DNA from: a virus | Reading direction: 5' to 3' (one strand) | DNA length: 64,000 bases | IMG/VR virus record: IMGVR_UViG_3300045257_000045 | Location: 4,092 to 68,091 of that record | Shown: piece after piece, positions 11,999-64,000 of the stretch | How the letters are laid out: each line of letters begins with the position of its first letter | Position numbering within the stretch: the first letter of the stretch is position 1 | Position numbers and translations under genes: made by a program | Notes under the pieces: generated by a model | Seen by the model: the letters and a program-made list of their open reading frames with translations, nothing else | Told to the model about the DNA's origin: nothing | The model's database searches: none

Positions 11999-12073
11999 GC
12001 CCCGGTCGTCTAGCGGCTAGGACAGCGGATTCCAGACCCGCTAACGTCGGTTCGAGTCCGACCTGGGGTGCCA
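11999..12073 (+). tRNA. tRNA-Trp (CCA)
   Basis: Cloverleaf: GCCCCGG/CTGGGGT acceptor, GTC/GAC D stem, GCGG/CCGC anticodon stem with TTCCAGA loop, GTCGG-TTCGAGT-CCGAC T arm, G73, encoded CCA. Confidence 0.85.
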
Positions 12074-33754: not shown

Positions 33755-34329
33755 ACCTAGACTTCAACAAGCTGCGGAAGGCGCTCGTGGAGCGACCTAA
33801 CACGGGCCACGACGTTACGGTCTTCGTTCACCCAGACGACCTTAAAGCAATGGCTCTGTTTTACGGGCAGTCGATACCTTTCGGCGCGTGGCCTGCTGTT
33901 TCGCACTTTGTCGGCTACTCCCTCAAGAGGGCTGGTCTGCTTGCGAAGCGCGGCGAGGCCAAGATATTCGACGCCACCGTCCTCACGTTGCAGATCGTGG
34001 ACCTCAAAGCCGATGTGTGCAGCAAACCTGGGTACGGCTGTTGCGACGGCAATATGGTTGAAGGCCACGCAGACACCTGCAAACACGCGGACGGAGTAGC
34101 GCCGCCGCCCAACGAAGCCCGCAAGCAGGAGTTGCAGCACGAGGTCTGGCATCTCAAGAACGTCATCACGGAGCAGGACAAGGCTCTGGCTCACTGGCGG
34201 AAGGAGGCCGACAAGGACGCTGCCAAGATGGCTGAGCTTCGTCTTGAGAACTACCGCCTAGGGACTGAGCTGGTGTGGGCTAAGGAAACAGGCAAGCAAC
34301 TGGTGGAGATACTGAGGGGTAAACTCTGA
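33751..34329 (+). CDS. Capsid-A-domain-like N-terminus + Cys/His motif + coiled coil
   Basis: LDFNKLRKAL...VFVHPDD...HFVGYSL...GEAKIFD; start re-called at ATG 33751. Confidence 0.5.
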   Translation: MNLDFNKLRKALVERPNTGHDVTVFVHPDDLKAMALFYGQSIPFGAWPAVSHFVGYSLKRAGLLAKRGEAKIFDATVLTLQIVDLKADVCSKPGYGCCDGNMVEGHADTCKHADGVAPPPNEARKQELQHEVWHLKNVITEQDKALAHWRKEADKDAAKMAELRLENYRLGTELVWAKETGKQLVEILRGKL

Positions 34330-34598
34330 TGTGGGAATGTTGCGACGAAGCTAGGAGGTTGGGGTGGAATGGCATGGTGAGGATGATTGTGCTAGGGTGG
34401 AAGACACCTAGAGAATCCTCGGTCGTCATCGAGATCTGCCCGTACTGCGACAAGGTTCTCCGAGGTGGAGATTCCGGAGCGGCGTAGTGCCGCCAGGGAT
34501 AAACCCCAGATTACACTTCCATGTCAGAATGTGTACCTTTAGTACTAGCAATAGCCATTTCGGGCTATGCGTAATCTGTTTGGAGTGATACACTTACC

Positions 34599-34823
34599 TT
34601 GTCTATGCACCTTCATAATATAATAGAGGTCTTGGAGAAGGCCATACAACATTTGCGGGACGCCGTCGAGTCTTTGAAGAAGGCCGACGTTCTATTGGCG
34701 GGGGTAGACATAGCCGTCCTGGAAGGAATAGTAGCCCCGCCTACCAAGGGCTCAAAGACCTCTGCGTCATTGAAGAGGTCTTGGGAACGACGCAAGCAGA
34801 GCGAGGAGCCCGAAACCTCATAG
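34599..34823 (+). CDS. Hypothetical protein at the convergence of the two arms
   Basis: 74-aa ORF ending against the last - strand gene. Confidence 0.4.
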   Translation: MSMHLHNIIEVLEKAIQHLRDAVESLKKADVLLAGVDIAVLEGIVAPPTKGSKTSASLKRSWERRKQSEEPETS

Positions 34824-35516
34824 AATCCTCAGAGCAACCCTCCCACCAAGATCCACCCACATCCTCAGCTTCTGCCACAGCGTCTTGGGCTTGACGAACT
34901 CGTCGGCCTCTGCGTGTACGTCCTTGGCAATCCCATCTACACTCTGCCCGATCCCCACAAACGCCTTGGACATCTCCGGTGCGGCTTTGCCGACAGCCTC
35001 GGAGGTCACAGCAATTCCGACAGCCGTCACGTTCGCAGTCTGTACGAATGCGTTCAGATCAGGATAGAGGTCGTCCAGCGAATCCTTGGCATCCCCCACA
35101 AGCGCCGTTGAGGCGTCTCCCAGCTTTGTGTAGCTTGCCAGGACCGGGTCCAGCTTGCTCCCCAGGCCGGTGACGGTGCCGTTCATGGCCGTGAGCTGCT
35201 TGTCGGCTTTGTCCGCAACGTTGGTGACGACGGCCTGGACGGAGGTGAGCTGCTTGTCGGCCTTGACCAGCGCAGAGGACACCTGAGCCATGAGGGCGTC
35301 CCGCAGAGGTAGCTTACCGTACAACGCCTTGCTCTGCGGATCTCCGTTGACGGTCTTCGTGACGGCGTCGAGGACTGGGTCCACACGATCGGTCAGAGCC
35401 TGGGCGACGACTGCACGGCTGCGGTAGCCTAGCCAGGAGATCGTGGTGAGGGTGCCGAAGAAGGCGAAGACGGACAGCAGGGCGAGGACTACGAAGATGT
35501 CTTTAACTGTCCTCAT
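34818..35516 (-). CDS. Membrane-anchored coiled-coil protein (possible spanin-like)
   Basis: N-terminal TM helix, long amphipathic helix with KADKQLT repeat, end of the lysis region. Confidence 0.6.
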   Translation of the reverse strand: MRTVKDIFVVLALLSVFAFFGTLTTISWLGYRSRAVVAQALTDRVDPVLDAVTKTVNGDPQSKALYGKLPLRDALMAQVSSALVKADKQLTSVQAVVTNVADKADKQLTAMNGTVTGLGSKLDPVLASYTKLGDASTALVGDAKDSLDDLYPDLNAFVQTANVTAVGIAVTSEAVGKAAPEMSKAFVGIGQSVDGIAKDVHAEADEFVKPKTLWQKLRMWVDLGGRVALRIL

Positions 35517-35847
35517 ACGTTACACCAGCTCCGTGAGCGGCAGACATGCGCGTGTTGTAAACCGCCTCCGCGCCTACCATCTCATCAACCACGTACGCGT
35601 CAACAGCAAAGCCTCGCATAGAATCCAGGCTCCTGCTCGACTTGAACTCGATCACGCTTCCGTTGCTTAGAAGGAGCTTGTTGTCAGACCGGCGCAGTGT
35701 GACGTTGTCGTCCCAAGGTTGCAGCAGCTTCATGGTGTCATCCATAAGGTTCACGCACTGATTGTGGGTCAAGCCGACCACCCAGTTCCGCGAACCAGCG
35801 TGGGACAACGCGTGTAGTGCTATGAAGTGTAGTTTTCCAGGTGTCAT
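35503..35847 (-). CDS. Mini-protein resembling the terminase large-subunit ATPase core
   Basis: WVVGLTHNQ...LSNGSVIEFKS...DSMRGFAVDAYVVDE; only 114 aa; AAAGGA RBS. Confidence 0.7.
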   Translation of the reverse strand: MTPGKLHFIALHALSHAGSRNWVVGLTHNQCVNLMDDTMKLLQPWDDNVTLRRSDNKLLLSNGSVIEFKSSRSLDSMRGFAVDAYVVDEMVGAEAVYNTRMSAAHGAGVTYEDS

Positions 35848-35869
35848 GTTAGTTTCCTTTTGAAATGAT

Positions 35870-35911
35870 GAAAAGCCCAGGCCGCAGACTTGTTAGGGTC
35901 TACGCCTGGGC
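35870..35911 (-). terminator. Intrinsic terminator
   Basis: On - strand GCCCAGGCGTAGAC...GTCTGCGGCCTGGGC followed by TTTT. Confidence 0.75.
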
Positions 35912-35917
35912 GTTGTC

Positions 35918-36022
35918 TTACTTAGCAGCGACGATGTGAACATCCCAGGGATCGGGAGGAACGGTAGGGCCGTGTGCGACGGCAAGAGCCGCCAGTGTGA
36001 GTGCGAGTAAAATCATCTTCAT
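35918..36022 (-). CDS. 34-aa secreted peptide precursor (MKMILLALTLAALAVA-HGPTVPPDPWDVHIVAAK)
   Basis: AAGGA RBS, Sec-type signal with AVA cleavage motif, terminator immediately after. Confidence 0.7.
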   Translation of the reverse strand: MKMILLALTLAALAVAHGPTVPPDPWDVHIVAAK

Positions 36023-36038
36023 TGTTTGGGTGTCCTTG

Positions 36039-36257
36039 TCACGGCTTAGGCTCTTCTGGCTTGGGCTCTGCCATCGGGGGCTGCTTGCGGGAGCCCATTG
36101 ACCGGGCAAGAACACCGGTTCCGAAGATGACCAAGTCGTGTGCGATCTGCGGGCGCTGCGTGTTGTCCACGAGAATAACGCCGGTCGCTATGAGCATCAG
36201 GCTGACCATGTGGTAGCCAGCCTCGCGCTCCAGGAACATTGCGAAACGAGTCAGCAT
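36039..36257 (-). CDS. Putative holin
   Basis: 72 aa, two hydrophobic segments, charged C-terminus, near the endolysin. Confidence 0.5.
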   Translation of the reverse strand: MLTRFAMFLEREAGYHMVSLMLIATGVILVDNTQRPQIAHDLVIFGTGVLARSMGSRKQPPMAEPKPEEPKP

Positions 36258-36265
36258 ATTTATCC

Positions 36266-36772
36266 TTACTTGCTTGTCCTAAACACAACGCCAATCTGGG
36301 GAACTACATTCCACGAGGAGTTGATCCACAGCAGACGGGGCGCAAACAGGATGGCCACGTTGGGGCGAACTTCGTACGCCAGCGTCGCCGCCAAACTTCC
36401 TGCAAAAGACATGCTCAATCCGCTGGGCACAGCTTGGTTCATCCCGATACCCGCGTCGCCGCCAGCCAGGAACGTCAACTTGCCGCTGGTGAACACGACG
36501 CGGTGAAGACCCTGTCTGATAGAGGCTGTGAACGCGTAGTAGTCCCGCTTTGTCGTTGGGTCTGTGCGAAGGACGGGCGTGATGTCTGCGGTCGTGCTGG
36601 TGTACATCCTTATGGAAGACAGAGCCGGGTAAATAGCCGTGATCCACAGTGTTGTGCGCGGCGTTCCGATCTGGTTGAACGCTACTCCCCCGCCTGCAAA
36701 GGTGGGGAGTGTCGCCGTTTGCGCCGACGCCGTTAGGCACAACGCTAAAATGAGTGCTAGTCGGTGTATCAC
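36266..36772 (-). CDS. Exported outer-membrane beta-barrel-like protein
   Basis: GTG start with GGAG RBS; signal peptide IHRLALILALCLTASA; alternating amphipathic strands ending QIGVVF. Confidence 0.55.
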   Translation of the reverse strand: MIHRLALILALCLTASAQTATLPTFAGGGVAFNQIGTPRTTLWITAIYPALSSIRMYTSTTADITPVLRTDPTTKRDYYAFTASIRQGLHRVVFTSGKLTFLAGGDAGIGMNQAVPSGLSMSFAGSLAATLAYEVRPNVAILFAPRLLWINSSWNVVPQIGVVFRTSK

Positions 36773-36936
36773 AGGGCTCCTTCGCGCAGGTTCTTCTCGT
36801 CCAGCTCGTCCAAAAACTTCTTGGCTTCGGCCATCTCCGCGTCGGCGTCCTGCGCTGCTGTGGGCCAACCCTCCGCTTCGAACTTCTCCAACTCTTCCGC
36901 GATCTTTTCTTCCTTGGTCTTCTCTACATCGCTCAT
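36769..36936 (-). CDS. Small acidic protein (55 aa)
   Basis: MSDVEKTKEEKIAEELEKFEAEGW..., GGGAG RBS, GTGA coupling. Confidence 0.6.
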   Translation of the reverse strand: MSDVEKTKEEKIAEELEKFEAEGWPTAAQDADAEMAEAKKFLDELDEKNLREGAL

Positions 36937-36949
36937 TGTGTTCTCCCTG

Positions 36950-37465
36950 TCACGCCGACCTGAACAGTTCCGCTGTCCTCGTGTTTCGCTCTTCGGATAT
37001 TCCGATGCGGTGGCAGACCTCGGCGCACCGCTTCCAGTTCCTAGCGTCTAGCGCCGCCTTGAGGTGCTGGAACTTGGCGAACCCCGCCAGCCCAAGGTTG
37101 TAGGCCATGTCGAACACAGCCTCCTGGACAAACTCCGGGTAGCTTAGGTACGGAACAACCAGCCGCAGTTCCTTCAAGAACTTGGCCGTGTCGTCGTACA
37201 GCACCGCGTCTATGTCTGCCTCAGCCAACCTAGTCTTGCAGAGGTGCTCGTAATGCGCGGCAGGGTGTCCCACCTCAGACGCTGATACCAAGTGAAAGTC
37301 GAAGGCGAGGTCACAGGCCGGTTCGAAAGGCAGAAGCATAGCGTGCTTGAGGCTAGGCAGCATGTGGCCTACGCCGACAGTGACGTTACCTCTGGTGTCT
37401 AGGTAGAGGTGGTTCACCCTGCCCTCTGCCTCTTCGGTTAGCTTTTTCAGTGCCTCTAGGTTCAT
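36950..37465 (-). CDS. Endolysin, GH24/T4-type lysozyme
   Basis: EG-x-LYLDTRG-x-TVGVGH (E-8x-D-5x-T triad); DMAYNLG. Confidence 0.9.
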   Translation of the reverse strand: MNLEALKKLTEEAEGRVNHLYLDTRGNVTVGVGHMLPSLKHAMLLPFEPACDLAFDFHLVSASEVGHPAAHYEHLCKTRLAEADIDAVLYDDTAKFLKELRLVVPYLSYPEFVQEAVFDMAYNLGLAGFAKFQHLKAALDARNWKRCAEVCHRIGISEERNTRTAELFRSA

Positions 37466-37692
37466 CGTTCTCCTCGGTACTCTGTGTCAACTGCCTTCTC
37501 CAACTCGCGCCATGCTGTCTTGACCGTCTGCCACGCAGCCACTTCAGGCACCGATATCGTGTCGGGGTTGTTAACCCGTTCGTTGCGCAGCTTAGCCCAG
37601 GAGCCGTACGCCACCGCAAAGCGATTGCCCACTTCCCAGGCGGGGGCGGCGGCGTTGAGCGCTAGGCACACAAACAACAGCAGACCCCTCAC
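37462..37692 (-). CDS. Small exported protein
   Basis: GTG start; signal-like RGLLLFVCLALNA. Confidence 0.5.
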   Translation of the reverse strand: MRGLLLFVCLALNAAAPAWEVGNRFAVAYGSWAKLRNERVNNPDTISVPEVAAWQTVKTAWRELEKAVDTEYRGER

Positions 37693-62620: not shown

Positions 62621-64000
62621 TTAGGGAACTAGCACTCTCGGTGTACGAGAAGCCATATCGTATCTAACCACTCCCATTTCCGAGAGCAGCTCAGAGTCGG
62701 ACAGTCCGCGAGAGAATACGGCTATCTGCCCAATGGTCCCGTGGAATGCTTGGGAGCCGCCGGAAAGAGATCCCACTTTCAAGGCGTTTGCCCCTAGTGC
62801 AGTCCCGTCTGTGAACGTTGTTAACGCAGTCAACGGTAAAGTAGAACCTAGACCTGAATTGCCGTACACTGTAACAGCGGACCCTACACGACGAACTACC
62901 AGCGTTACGAACGCACCGTCCGTGGAGAGTGAGAATGCAGAAGATGTGGTGCCGCCTACCTTCACCTTCCAGGAGTTGCCAACGCTTGAATCGCGCAATA
63001 TTTGGAAATCAGTCTTGTCGAGAACCATCTCATTAAATATTACGGGTTGTGTGCCTTCGTGCTTAAACGTCAGGAACACGGTTAAGTCTGTAAGCGCCAC
63101 GTTGTAGGGGGTTGTAATGGTAACTGGTGTGGGGTTAGTCATCGAGTCAGCTTGAGGCCACCCGGTTCTTAATCCATCCCCATCATTGACCACCAACTGC
63201 GTTGCGATACCAGTCACTTGGTAGCCGTTCGGCTTCCCAGCCTTAGGCCCGGCATAGTCGGTAATGGTTGTTGACCAAACCGGCATATCCATTAACCATA
63301 GAGCGTCAAGACCGTTTGCGATGTGCGTTGTCTTTGTTCCAAACCAGGATGTATGAGGCGTCGGGTTTGCTTGCGATCTGGGCACGAATCTAACCCACTT
63401 GTAGAACGGAGCATACTCGTCCGTACCGGAGTTTAGAAAGTTGCCAGTCACAGCCACTTTACAAGTCACACTACCGTCCGCTGGGTACAAGCAACTGCTC
63501 TCCAGAAGCTGCGGCATGGTCGGCCCGAACGTTGGGTTGTTCACCGGGTCTGGAGGAATATAACCGGCCAGCGTAGCGTCTAGCATGGCGGTAGGGTAAG
63601 GCCCAATGTCCCATGCCAGGATTCCGGCGCTGCCGTCGTTGTAACCCTCGCTGCCGGTGATCGGTGCCGGGGTCGGAGCAAAGCCAAGAAATACCCAGCG
63701 ATTGATGCCCCCGCCTATCCAACTGATGGTGCCCCTGCGACCGTACGGGTATTCGTTGAAGTCTTTGTAAGACCCGAACCCGGCGTCGGTAATCGTCGTC
63801 CAGTTGGAGTCCAGGAGCATATCACTACCGTGCCCCGTACCGTTGTATATCTGGTTGATCGTCTGTCCGTTTTGCGTAACCGCGATGTTGTTCACCGGGG
63901 TTCTAATGACAGAGAAGTTCTCGATGCCGTTGGTGTACGCGAAGTGGTATATCCACGCATCCGTACCCACATTGTGAGTTACCGGGAACTGGTACCCTGG
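62621..64000 (-). CDS. Large virion-associated protein with C-terminal LamG/concanavalin-A-like domain (5' end outside the window)
   Basis: LKVGS...FHGTIGQIAVFSRGLSDSEL; frame open to the window edge. Confidence 0.75.
   Translation of the reverse strand, partial: PGYQFPVTHNVGTDAWIYHFAYTNGIENFSVIRTPVNNIAVTQNGQTINQIYNGTGHGSDMLLDSNWTTITDAGFGSYKDFNEYPYGRRGTISWIGGGINRWVFLGFAPTPAPITGSEGYNDGSAGILAWDIGPYPTAMLDATLAGYIPPDPVNNPTFGPTMPQLLESSCLYPADGSVTCKVAVTGNFLNSGTDEYAPFYKWVRFVPRSQANPTPHTSWFGTKTTHIANGLDALWLMDMPVWSTTITDYAGPKAGKPNGYQVTGIATQLVVNDGDGLRTGWPQADSMTNPTPVTITTPYNVALTDLTVFLTFKHEGTQPVIFNEMVLDKTDFQILRDSSVGNSWKVKVGGTTSSAFSLSTDGAFVTLVVRRVGSAVTVYGNSGLGSTLPLTALTTFTDGTALGANALKVGSLSGGSQAFHGTIGQIAVFSRGLSDSELLSEMGVVRYDMASRTPRVLVP

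What the first reader, a model, noticed from the sequence alone, without database searches (positions are those of the whole stretch)
35503..35847. 114-aa mini-terminase ATPase fragment behind the lysis genes
Seen: WVVGLTHNQ...LLLSNGSVIEFKSSRSLDSMRGFAVDAYVVDE reproduces the TerL segment from just after Walker A (only GK remains, in MTPGK) to Walker B. There is no complete P-loop and no nuclease domain, yet the gene has its own AAAGGA RBS and overlaps the next gene. Inference: it cannot package DNA, so it is either a decoy/dominant-negative protein or a decayed relic.
Basis: partly seen in the sequence, partly recalled or inferred. Interest (0 to 1): 0.75.

Follow-up and report, generated by a model that had tools for sequence, protein, structure and literature searches.

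The report
P-loop-less mini copy of terminase ATPase
A soil phage carries a small intact gene that copies only the middle of its DNA-packaging motor's ATPase; it cannot package DNA, but small genes of the same shape recur in many other phages, so it is probably a working accessory protein of unknown role.

Summary
Window 35503-35847 (-) is an intact 114-codon ORF with an AAAGGA ribosome-binding site, and it overlaps the next gene by 14 nt. It is homologous to the large-terminase (TerL) ATPase core, from the Walker A lysine to just past Walker B. It has no P-loop, lid or nuclease.

It is not a pseudogene with frameshifted remainders. A TerL HMM finds nothing else within 34000-37500, and tblastn finds nothing else on the 68-kb contig.

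It is not a recent copy of the phage's own type of TerL. It is 34% identical to the closest relative's TerL, whose equivalent segment has more than 100 relatives at 54% identity or more.

No orthologue turned up in about 15 billion proteins. Its start, end and motifs nevertheless match an uncharacterised family of 110-125-aa phage proteins (PHROG 6910 and kin). In Arthrobacter phages these sit beside the terminase genes; in Microbacterium phage Stromboli the member sits mid-genome.

Codon usage and the ribosome-binding site are native to this phage.

Best reading: a real, non-catalytic TerL mimic that keeps the trans-acting arginine finger and acts by binding. Its partner is untested: TerL itself, or a host terminase sensor. 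A decayed relic remains possible at about 0.2.

Published analogues of unknown function are T4 vs.8 and Ksap2. This scan has already noted similar mini-terminases in many other genomes.

The parts
35503..35847 (-). 114-aa ORF: P-loop-less core of a TerL-type ATPase fold (helix after Walker A, beta2, helix, beta-hairpin, IEFKS strand, arginine-finger loop, Walker B strand, short tail)
35855..35860 (-). AAAGGA Shine-Dalgarno-like site, 7 nt before the ATG. It is the same type seen before many genes of this phage.
   Evidence: In one search, 30 of 36 gene starts carry an SD-like 4-mer, against 16% of random 15-nt windows.
35833..35838 (-). G4-K5, the only remnant of the Walker A P-loop. The next residue is L instead of T/S, and the beta1 strand is absent.
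35614..35616 (-). R78, in the S-x-R-G motif. It aligns with R139 of P74-26 TerL, the trans-acting arginine finger, and is invariant in the mini, in four small-family members and in two TerL segments.
   Evidence: the profile aligns DNLRG of 4zni; entry 4znj is the R139A mutant.. Passages of 10.1101/080440.
35581..35595 (-). Walker B strand Y85-V-V-D-E89, with the acidic pair retained
   Evidence: E89 is invariant in A1.
35875..35911 (-). Strong hairpin followed by a U-rich tract (35863-35875). It looks like an intrinsic terminator and lies between the 34-aa secreted-peptide gene and the mini gene's ribosome-binding site.
   Evidence: -27 kcal/mol, z -4.3, 0 of 200 shuffles as stable. The simple terminator scan did not list it.
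34818..35516 (-). Downstream gene, overlapping by 14 nt: 232-aa protein with an N-terminal TM helix and a DUF948-like region. Its homologues sit in the lysis cassettes of related phages (L010, L011).

Best explanation
This is a real, intact accessory gene, not the broken piece of a larger gene. It encodes a 114-residue protein that is a cut-down, non-catalytic version of the N-terminal ATPase fold of a phage large terminase. The protein starts at the Walker A lysine and ends a few residues after the strand that follows Walker B.

It has the same architecture as an uncharacterised family of 110-125-aa phage proteins (PHROG 6910, with 34977, 3167 and 2074 as kin), and its start and end points match theirs. 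Sequence-wise it lies between TerL and that family.

Shown: the homology, the missing P-loop, lid and nuclease, the retained arginine-finger residue and Walker B acids, the native translation signals, and the absence of flanking remnants.

Inferred: because it cannot bind or hydrolyse ATP or cut DNA, it works by binding, as a look-alike of a TerL ATPase subunit. The one catalytic element kept in all seven rows of alignment A5 (the mini, four small-family members and two TerL segments) is the trans-acting arginine. I therefore think the most likely partner is a TerL ATPase subunit. The mini would act as a regulatory or capping pseudo-subunit of the packaging motor, made late together with the lysis genes. 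The partner and the effect are untested.
For: (1) Real TerL homology confined to the ORF.

(2) No remnants elsewhere.

(3) Family match:
- phrog_6910 E 7.9e-6, residues 18-104 against profile 26-110 of 125.
- The same profile found the mini but not the TerLs of Tunturi_4 or L016 at E <= 1 (1 of 5 records).
- hhalign of the mini against three Arthrobacter-phage small proteins: probability 96%, E 4.4e-9, 54 columns.
- End-to-end alignment with Yavru gp21, Coral gp1, Bauer gp2 and Stromboli gp29 shares the N-terminal Met position, the length and the C-terminal G-x-x-V-x-Y strand.
- Those proteins hit phrog_6910 at 1.5e-4, 3.2e-9, 9.1e-16 and 1.1e-21.
- That family is itself TerL-derived: hhalign against 34 TerLs gives probability 83%, E 9.6e-6, TerL columns 73-156.
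- In a tree the mini joins the small proteins, SH-aLRT 85.

(4) The family is kept in cultured phages, including 15-kb genomes. Yavru gp21 has homologues in 24 of 24 listed Arthrobacter phage records. Coral gp1 and Bauer gp2 lie directly upstream of the TerS/TerL genes.

(5) Native gene signals:
- Codon log-likelihood 0.225 per codon in frame, against -0.75 and -0.68 out of frame, within the range 0.10-0.51 of 29 confident genes.
- An AAAGGA site like other genes of the phage.

(6) Not neutral decay of an own-type TerL:
- Matches fall on 15 of 22 universally conserved TerL columns but only 2 of 11 clade-specific ones, Fisher p 0.010.
- Only 3.3% of 2000 substitution-only simulations reaching 35% identity or less stayed stop-free.

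(7) R78 aligns with the P74-26 arginine finger. R78 and G79 are invariant across the small proteins and the TerL segments.
Against: The gene is a singleton. A search of 1.84 billion representatives found only itself and one 141-aa TerL-like protein (P0002) that looks cut off and may be a contig-edge fragment (E 6.4e-4). The word-based searches found nothing. So selection could not be measured.

Related phages with the same lysis genes (L010, L011) and Tunturi_4 lack it.

The mini is more identical to TerL segments (35-38%) than to the small-family members (18-31%) in alignment A5. The same architecture could therefore have arisen independently, or the grouping (support 85, not starred; long branches) could be attraction.

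The hhalign match to the small family covers only residues 45-98.

In this phage the gene is not beside terminase genes, and the family's Stromboli member is not either, so a packaging role is not implied by position here.

A terminator-like hairpin stands just upstream, so expression is uncertain.

The fold lacks the central beta1 strand and everything after beta4. Whether it folds alone is unknown. AF2 confidence drops after residue 70, and residues 98-114 score below 50.
Confidence: 0.55

Rival explanations
1. Relic. A piece of a TerL gene from another phage lineage was left in the variable end of the lysis region by illegitimate recombination. It happens to be still open and may be translated, but it has no function.
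For: - It is a singleton with no orthologue.
- It is absent from the equivalent loci of relatives.
- It lies at the junction of the two convergent arms, a typical place for mosaic junk.
- It retains catalytic residues (Walker B D-E) that are useless without a P-loop, as expected of a recent truncation.
- Without the small proteins in the tree it groups with foreign TerLs L002/L005 (96/92).
- In a GC-rich genome spurious ORFs over 100 aa are common.
- Partial decay from an unsampled TerL would need fewer substitutions than I simulated.
Against: - Both ends coincide with those of an independent family of small proteins.
- A native-type ribosome-binding site sits at the right distance, and the codon signature is normal.
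- There is no frameshift over 90 homologous residues despite a terminal branch of 2.1 against a median of 0.3.
- No TerL closer than 41% identity was found among the 121 TerL-type proteins compared, and the search of the 1.84 billion representatives found none. The control TerL segment finds 130 relatives.
- The AU test does not reject an own-clade origin either (p 0.27), so the donor is not established.
Confidence: 0.2
2. Immune interplay. The mini imitates the TerL ATPase surface that host terminase sensors (Avs1-3, Upx-type) recognise. It would act as an anti-defence decoy, or merely be a further trigger, like the stand-alone TerL-like proteins vs.8, Ksap1 and Ksap2.
For: - Published passages state that Ksap2 has weak structural similarity to a TerL ATPase and binds and activates KpAvs2 (PMC11564622).
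- T4 vs.8 is homologous to the TerL ATPase domain and is toxic with EcAvs2. The authors suggest such proteins may be anti-defence proteins (PMC13601566).
- The mini has the same fold class and sits among accessory genes.
Against: - There is no detectable sequence relation to vs.8: BLASTP E 0.85, hhalign probability 8%.
- vs.8 keeps Walker A and a bridging ATP in the modelled complex (passage), and the mini cannot bind ATP.
- No Avs-type sensor of the unknown host was examined.
- The Arthrobacter family's position inside the terminase operon points to packaging rather than defence.
Confidence: 0.15
3. Weapon between phages. A dominant-negative pseudo-subunit poisons the packaging motor of co-infecting or resident rival phages while sparing the phage's own TerL.
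For: Only the architecture: an arginine-finger face without an active site, and placement among late accessory genes.
Against: No evidence of specificity, no known precedent found in my searches, and TerL rings assemble on the portal, which the fragment has no known means to reach.
Confidence: 0.05

Closest known systems
PHROG 6910-type small phage proteins (with PHROGs 34977, 3167, 2074), e.g. Microbacterium phage Stromboli gp29, Arthrobacter phage Bauer gp2, Coral gp1, Yavru gp21; all annotated hypothetical
   Same: They are 110-125 aa and start at the position of the Walker A lysine of TerL with no P-loop. They share the same order of elements, and the conserved residues T-x-RR, G63, I66, F68, R72, S76, R78-G79 and D83 are all shared. 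The C-terminal G-x-x-V-x-Y strand also matches. Stromboli gp29 also keeps V-D-E at Walker B. The family is itself homologous to the same TerL segment.
   Different: Identity is only 18-31%, and the PHROG match is modest (E 7.9e-6). The three Arthrobacter members have lost the Walker B acids (D-R-V-Y-V-P type). Most of them sit at a genome end next to TerS/TerL or HNH genes, whereas this one follows the lysis genes of a phage whose nearest cultured relative infects an acidobacterium. Their function is unknown, so membership explains nothing yet.
Large terminase (TerL) ATPase domain, e.g. P74-26 TerL (PDB 4ZNI), T4 gp17, Sf6 gp2
   Same: It has the same fold segment: the helix after the P-loop, the W-V-x-(A/G) strand with the following Q, the NGSxIxFKS strand, the L/M-R-G arginine-finger loop and the hhhhDE Walker B.
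   Different: It has no beta1 or P-loop, no motif III or lid, and no RNase H-like nuclease. It is 114 aa against 390-480. The Pfam score is below the gathering threshold. It cannot be a packaging enzyme.
T4 vs.8 and Ksap1/Ksap2 (stand-alone terminase-ATPase-like phage proteins that activate Avs2)
   Same: They are small non-terminase phage proteins with a TerL-ATPase-like fold, restricted to narrow phage groups and of unknown function (passages of PMC11564622 and PMC13601566).
   Different: vs.8 is 219 aa and keeps Walker A and B. I found no sequence similarity between it and the mini. Avs2 activation is untested for the mini.
Non-catalytic arginine-finger donor subunits of ring ATPases (e.g. 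the clamp-loader delta-prime; recalled, not looked up)
   Same: This is a working analogy only: an ATPase-fold subunit that cannot hydrolyse ATP but keeps the residue that reaches into a neighbour's active site.
   Different: It belongs to a different ATPase class, has no homology, and no complex has been shown here.

Membership tests
Large terminase subunit (TerL; Pfam Terminase_6N PF03237 plus nuclease domain) | Walker A P-loop G/A-x4-G-K-T/S preceded by strand beta1 | tested here: not met
   The ORF starts M-T-P-G-K-L, so only G-K remains. The upstream in-frame codons encode the ribosome-binding site and part of the hairpin, and the HMM finds no homology there.
Large terminase subunit (TerL; Pfam Terminase_6N PF03237 plus nuclease domain) | Walker B hhhhDE with the catalytic glutamate | tested here: met
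   Y85-V-V-D-E89 aligns with the Walker B of all 8 TerLs in A1 and with ILDE of P74-26.
Large terminase subunit (TerL; Pfam Terminase_6N PF03237 plus nuclease domain) | Trans-acting arginine finger about 11 residues before the Walker B glutamate | tested here: met
   R78 aligns with R139 of P74-26. The role of R139 is taken from passages of 10.1101/080440.
Large terminase subunit (TerL; Pfam Terminase_6N PF03237 plus nuclease domain) | Motif III, lid subdomain and C-terminal RNase H-like nuclease | tested here: not met
   The ORF ends at residue 114. No nuclease-like or further TerL-like stretch appears in any frame of 34000-37500 or on the contig.
Large terminase subunit (TerL; Pfam Terminase_6N PF03237 plus nuclease domain) | Score above Pfam's gathering threshold | tested here: not met
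   13.6 bits against 22, E 0.054. The genome-wide first look also found nothing.
PHROG 6910-type small TerL-core proteins | Match to the family profile | tested here: met
   E 7.9e-6, 26.6 bits, residues 18-104 against profile positions 26-110 of 125. This is the best of 7 PHROG hits, and E is 1.6e-7 in the genome search. PHROGs has no curated cut-off, and the match is weaker than those of Stromboli gp29 (1.1e-21) and Bauer gp2 (9.1e-16).
PHROG 6910-type small TerL-core proteins | Length 110-125 aa with N-terminus at the TerL Walker A lysine and C-terminus just after the strand following Walker B | tested here: met
   Alignments A3 and A5. A4 against the TerL profile places family residue 10 at TerL residue 73.
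PHROG 6910-type small TerL-core proteins | Conserved T-x-R-R ... G-x-x-I-x-F ... R-x3-S-x-R-G ... D signature | tested here: met
   T50, R52, R53, G63, I66, F68, R72, S76, R78, G79 and D83 are invariant in A3 (4 sequences). With Stromboli gp29 and two TerL segments added, only G63, F68, R78 and G79 stay invariant.
PHROG 6910-type small TerL-core proteins | Position next to terminase or HNH genes at a genome end (seen in the Arthrobacter members) | tested here: not met
   Here the gene follows the lysis cassette at the junction of the two arms. Stromboli gp29 is also mid-genome, so this may not be a defining feature.
Avs2-activating TerL-like proteins (T4 vs.8 type) | Sequence homology to vs.8, with Walker A and B retained | tested here: not met
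   BLASTP E 0.85. hhalign of vs.8 against A5 gives probability 8%. Walker A is absent.
Avs2-activating TerL-like proteins (T4 vs.8 type) | Binding to or activation of an Avs2 sensor | not testable with these tools
   This needs co-expression or pull-down experiments.

The most novel reading that the evidence does not exclude
The mini and the PHROG 6910-type proteins are a widespread, unrecognised third component of phage packaging machinery. They would be non-catalytic pseudo-subunits that keep only the arginine-finger face of TerL and plug into the TerL ATPase ring or monomer, to switch its ATPase on or off (start or stop of packaging, or sabotage of a rival's motor). This would parallel the inactive subunits of other ring ATPases.
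Probability: 0.12. Interest if true: 0.75.

Novelty: new member of a known kind. Interest (0 to 1): 0.4.

Why it matters
Stand-alone look-alikes of the terminase ATPase have only recently been noticed (Ksap2 in 2024, T4 vs.8 in 2026). Their role is called an open question in the passages I read.

This case adds three points:
- A P-loop-less form exists in a relative of acidobacterial phages.
- It links by sequence and architecture to a family present in dozens of cultured, genetically tractable actinobacteriophages, including 15-kb genomes.
- In that family the arginine-finger residue, not the nucleotide-binding residues, is what stays conserved.

That turns a vague 'decoy' idea into a concrete test. 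Delete Coral gp1, Bauer gp2 or Stromboli gp29, or mutate the arginine, and look at packaging and at plating on hosts with terminase sensors.

By itself the window's gene is a singleton of unknown function, and this scan has already reported similar mini-terminases in many genomes. It is a modest, not a striking, find.

Tried and rejected
Upstream extension of the TerL homology. A tblastn alignment with Tunturi_4 TerL ran 45 codons upstream through a TAA. HMMER gives no support for it, and that stretch encodes the hairpin and the ribosome-binding site, so I rejected it.

Split gene or intein. Some clade TerLs carry inteins, but the mini has no P-loop extein and no intein motifs. I rejected this by inspection only.

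Citrobacter phage IME-CF2 102-aa protein (tblastn E 9). It belongs to another PHROG (7497), and BLASTP gives E 0.13, so the hit is chance.

P0002, the only hit in the 1.84-billion-protein search.

Structure.
- Single-sequence AF2 was poor (pLDDT 56), and its Foldseek search gave nothing significant.
- phmmer of the mini against the PDB gave only uridylate kinase at E 0.1.
- The profile of the three Arthrobacter proteins against the PDB gave nothing at E below 0.3.

Complex prediction of the L016 TerL ATPase domain (alignment of 34 rows, residues 1-258) with the mini gave no support (score 0.00, controls not run).

Sequencing runs. Only one DNA run holds the stretch, and it may be the source sample. 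No RNA holder is listed.

Metagenome scans.
- The lectin-like ORF 62621-63970, tried in order to reach the missing genome end and the true TerL, found no relative.
- The mini found 7 loci. With the 6 loci that makes 13: 11 are closed TerL frames of 403-466 aa, 2 run off a contig end (370 and 208 aa), and none is a short closed ORF.

Origin of the fragment. The trees put the mini with L002/L005-type TerLs (98 in the quick tree; 96/92 in the careful tree). Long branches meet there, and the AU test does not reject an own-clade origin (p 0.27). The origin is left open.

DNA-binding patch of P74-26 (R101, R102, R104). My hand mapping puts only K57 opposite R104, so I make no claim.

A PHROG scan gave nothing better than E 0.045, and I did not pursue it.

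Literature searches that found nothing on P-loop-less stand-alone terminase fragments: 'truncated terminase' + 'large subunit' + phage (0 papers); 'large terminase' + 'lacks the Walker A' + phage (0); Arthrobacter phage terms (nothing relevant in the listing); terminase pseudogene/remnant terms (listing only, nothing relevant). Supplements are closed. Supplementary Data S9 of PMC11564622 and Supplementary Figs 15-16 of PMC13601566 (Ksap2 and vs.8 homologue lists and alignments) could bear on whether PHROG 6910-type proteins are already listed there.
Full report
WHAT IS THERE. On the minus strand, 35503-35847 is an ORF of 114 codons (MTPGKLHF...VTYEDS). AAAGGA lies 7 nt before its ATG. The stop lies 14 nt inside the next gene, 34818-35516, which encodes a 232-aa protein with an N-terminal membrane helix and a weak DUF948-like region. 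The frame cannot be extended: a TAA stands 15 codons upstream with no ATG/GTG/TTG between. Directly upstream of the ribosome-binding site is a 14-pair G+C-rich hairpin (35875-35911) followed by a U-rich tract. It folds at -27 kcal/mol, z -4.3, and none of 200 shuffles was as stable. The simple terminator scan did not list it.

THE PHAGE. The window is bases 4092-68091 of a linear 68,091-bp IMG/VR record that CheckV estimates to be 71% complete. The minus-strand late operon reads: lectin-like ORF, glycosyltransferase, portal, scaffold, major head protein, tail genes, phrog_704 exonuclease, dNMP kinase, endolysin, an OMP-like secreted protein, small membrane proteins, the mini gene, and the 232-aa membrane protein.

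It is a relative of Tunturiibacter phage Tunturi_4. The portal is 48% identical, the glycosyltransferase 45%, and the gene order is the same. Tunturi_4 is an 88-kb siphovirus of an acidobacterium (passages of PMC11924767). The closest relative I found is viral contig L016 (portal 63%, major head protein 81%), in which TerL lies directly upstream of the glycosyltransferase.

On our contig no full TerL exists. tblastn with three TerLs hits only the mini ORF. The true TerL is presumably in the missing part. A metagenome scan meant to reach it found nothing.

THE HOMOLOGY IS REAL AND CONFINED TO THE ORF.
- Pfam Terminase_6N scores below threshold (E 0.054), and TerL PHROGs score E 0.003-0.02.
- tblastn against 50,697 phage records found 103 records. 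In the rows shown, most matches lie in genes annotated as terminase, and the best is Tunturi_4 TerL (33%, E 0.01).
- An HMM of four TerLs against all six frames of 34000-37500 hits only this frame, residues about 2-92, E 9.4e-16, and nothing in the flanks.
- The alignment shows the helix after the P-loop, the N-W-V-V-G strand with Q30, the NGSVIEFKS strand, the S-M-R-G loop and Y-V-V-D-E. The loci in that alignment, apart from L016, were found through the NGSVIEFK word, so the invariance of that word is by ascertainment. L016 and Tunturi_4, found otherwise, have SVIEFKS and SDIEFKS.
- A profile of the alignment hits the P74-26 TerL ATPase domain at E 3.4e-32. It places R78 opposite R139 and E89 opposite the Walker B glutamate, and PDB entry 4ZNJ is the R139A mutant. 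[quoted passage not shown]
- The ESM Atlas model of the protein (pTM 0.76) superposes on full-length TerL models at TM 0.80-0.86 by query.
- An AF2 model made with the alignment (pLDDT 75; residues 1-70 about 90; residues 98-114 below 50) has nine TerL ATPase structures as its nine best PDB matches. Their E-values are 0.013-0.065, none significant by the tool's mark, and the model leans on a TerL alignment.

WHAT IT IS NOT.
It is not a packaging enzyme. There is no P-loop (only G4-K5), no motif III or lid, and no nuclease.

It is not a pseudogene with frameshifted remainders.

It is not a recent copy of the phage's own type of TerL:
- It is 34% identical to L016 TerL and 33% to Tunturi_4 TerL, no closer than to unrelated TerLs (32-37%).
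- As a control, the equivalent 112 residues of L016 TerL found 130 proteins at E <= 0.001 among 155 candidates. Nearly all of the 120 listed are 54-89% identical.
- The mini found none in the same database. It is 25-41% identical (median 34%) to the 101 of 121 TerL-type proteins with which it aligns over 70 residues or more.

It is probably not neutral decay of such a copy:
- Its matches to the clade consensus fall on 15 of 22 universally conserved TerL columns but only 2 of 11 clade-specific columns (Fisher p 0.010).
- In 2000 substitution-only simulations, only 3.3% of sequences that had drifted to 35% identity or less were still free of stops. Indels would lower this further.

These arguments do not exclude partial decay of a fragment from an unsampled foreign TerL.

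THE TURN: A RECURRENT ARCHITECTURE. The best PHROG match was not a terminase but phrog_6910, an unnamed family with a 125-position profile (E 7.9e-6). In a search of five records this profile found the mini but not the TerLs of Tunturi_4 or L016 at E <= 1.

Following weak tblastn hits under 'hypothetical protein' led to Arthrobacter phage Yavru gp21 (125 aa). It matches phrog_6910 (1.5e-4) and, weakly, a TerL PHROG, and it matches the mini by BLASTP (E 2e-7 pairwise, 44% over 39 residues).

Its homologues occur in 24 of 24 listed Arthrobacter phage records: 5 near the right genome end of 15-kb phages, and 19 as gene 1 or 2 at the left end. I checked the surroundings in three phages:
- Coral: gp1, then gp2 (DNA-binding, weak TerS hits), then gp3 terminase.
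- Bauer: gp2, then gp3 TerS, then gp4 TerL.
- Yavru: gp20 HNH, gp21, genome end, gp1 terminase.

Bauer gp2 found 99 records. Of the 45 rows shown:
- 21 are small Arthrobacter 'hypothetical' genes (17 at the left end, 4 at the right end).
- 2 are small Microbacterium genes.
- 21 fall inside Mycobacterium or Gordonia terminase genes.
- 1 falls inside a 492-aa Bifidobacterium phage protein.

Microbacterium phage Stromboli gp29 (111 aa) is a core member of phrog_6910 (E 1.1e-21). It lies mid-genome after a Cas4-type exonuclease, not near the terminase genes.

The mini aligns with these proteins from first to last residue, at 18-31% identity (25-32% with the three Arthrobacter proteins in A3). They share:
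- the same N-terminal Met position, where TerL has its Walker A lysine;
- the same length;
- T50, R52, R53, G63, I66, F68, R72, S76, R78, G79 and D83;
- a C-terminal G-x-x-V-x-Y strand.

Stromboli gp29 keeps V-D-E at Walker B, as the mini does. The three Arthrobacter proteins do not.

Profile comparisons give:
- mini against the three Arthrobacter proteins: probability 96%, E 4.4e-9, but only 54 columns;
- those three against 34 TerLs: probability 83%, E 9.6e-6, TerL columns 73-156.

In a tree the mini joins the small proteins (SH-aLRT 85, not starred; long branches, so unsure). Without them it joins the L002/L005-type TerLs (96/92), and the AU test does not reject an own-clade origin (p 0.27).

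Foldseek against predicted viral structures lists, beside TerLs, many phage proteins of 81-162 aa, among them those of Yavru, Catdawg, Hedwig, Reindeer and Sansa (only 2 matches at E <= 0.001).

SIGNS OF A LIVE GENE. The codon log-likelihood is 0.225 per codon in frame against -0.75 and -0.68 out of frame. GC3 is 0.66. Both lie within the range of 29 confident genes of the window. An SD-like 4-mer precedes 30 of 36 gene starts, the mini included, against 16% of random windows. AAAGGA with an A-rich spacer recurs at several of them.

Against this stand four points. The gene is a singleton. Relatives with the same set of lysis genes (L010, L011) lack it. A terminator-like hairpin precedes it. 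No RNA data exist (see Tried and rejected).

HOW IT MOST LIKELY WORKS. Shown: it is a TerL ATPase-core fold without the means to bind or hydrolyse ATP or to cut DNA. It keeps the arginine that in TerL reaches into the neighbouring subunit's active site. In alignment A5 that arginine is invariant, along with the glycine after it and two core residues, across the mini, four small-family members and two TerL segments. Walker A is lost in all the small proteins, and Walker B is lost in the three Arthrobacter ones.

Inferred: the protein works by binding something that recognises a TerL ATPase subunit. My first choice is TerL itself, with the mini as a regulatory or capping pseudo-subunit. This fits the position of the Arthrobacter members inside the terminase operon.

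The second choice is a host sensor of terminase. Published passages report that stand-alone TerL-like proteins (Ksap2; T4 vs.8) bind or activate Avs2. Their authors call the function an open question and suggest anti-defence (PMC11564622, PMC13601566). vs.8 itself shows no detectable sequence similarity to the mini.

A relic remains possible; I put it at about 0.2.

NOVELTY AND SCORE. The kind is already known: stand-alone terminase-ATPase look-alikes are in print, and PHROG 6910-type proteins are in databases as 'unknown function'. This scan has noted mini-terminases before on other DNA; 90 notes in at least 85 genomes held my search words. What is added here:
- an example from a relative of acidobacterial phages that links TerL and the PHROG 6910 family;
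- the observation that the arginine-finger residue is the conserved element;
- tractable cultured phages in which to test the function.

I score interest at 0.4.

Noticed in passing
window 34818-37465 (-); L010:5192-8287; L011:4497-6507: The lysis region holds an endolysin, a signal-peptide beta-barrel/OMP-like protein (36266-36868), a 72-aa membrane protein, a 34-aa secreted peptide and a TM + DUF948-like 232-aa protein. The same set (endolysin, OMP-like protein, small TM protein, DUF948-like TM protein) recurs in a different order in two related viral contigs. It may be an unusual envelope-disruption (spanin-like) set in relatives of acidobacterial phages.
   Followed up: partly
window 35863-35911 (-): A very stable hairpin (-27 kcal/mol, z -4.3) with a U-rich tail lies inside the late operon, after the 34-aa peptide gene and before the mini gene. 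It would attenuate or end transcription ahead of the last two genes.
   Followed up: partly
window 62621-64000 (-): An ORF of 449 aa or more, with a weak concanavalin/Laminin_G_3-like C-terminus, sits upstream of the glycosyltransferase, where L016 and Tunturi_4 have TerL. It has no PHROG hit, and a metagenome scan found no relative.
   Followed up: partly
proteins P0009, P0027, P0060, P0070, P0079, P0089: Several TerLs of the Tunturi_4/L016 clade are 472-785 aa and carry intein or homing-endonuclease Pfam domains (PF14528, PF05204). Inteins appear to be common in this clade's terminase.
   Followed up: no
They gave no PHROG match better than E 0.045, so that claim is not supported by this one test.
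   Followed up: partly
L036:302-727 (Arthrobacter phage Bauer gp1): Directly upstream of Bauer's mini-TerL-like gp2 is a 141-aa protein that matches a small 'DNA polymerase/primase' PHROG (8643, E 3e-52) and the N-terminal parts of long primase families. It is another small protein resembling a piece of a large enzyme, at the terminase end of the genome.
   Followed up: no
G002 (record of L011, 60,717 bp, direct terminal repeats, 100% complete): This complete relative (endolysin 52% identical) gave no Terminase_6N match at E <= 1, so its terminase is of another family or too divergent for the first look.
   Followed up: no
window 11999-12073 (+): A tRNA-Trp (CCA) gene lies in the early arm.
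   Followed up: no
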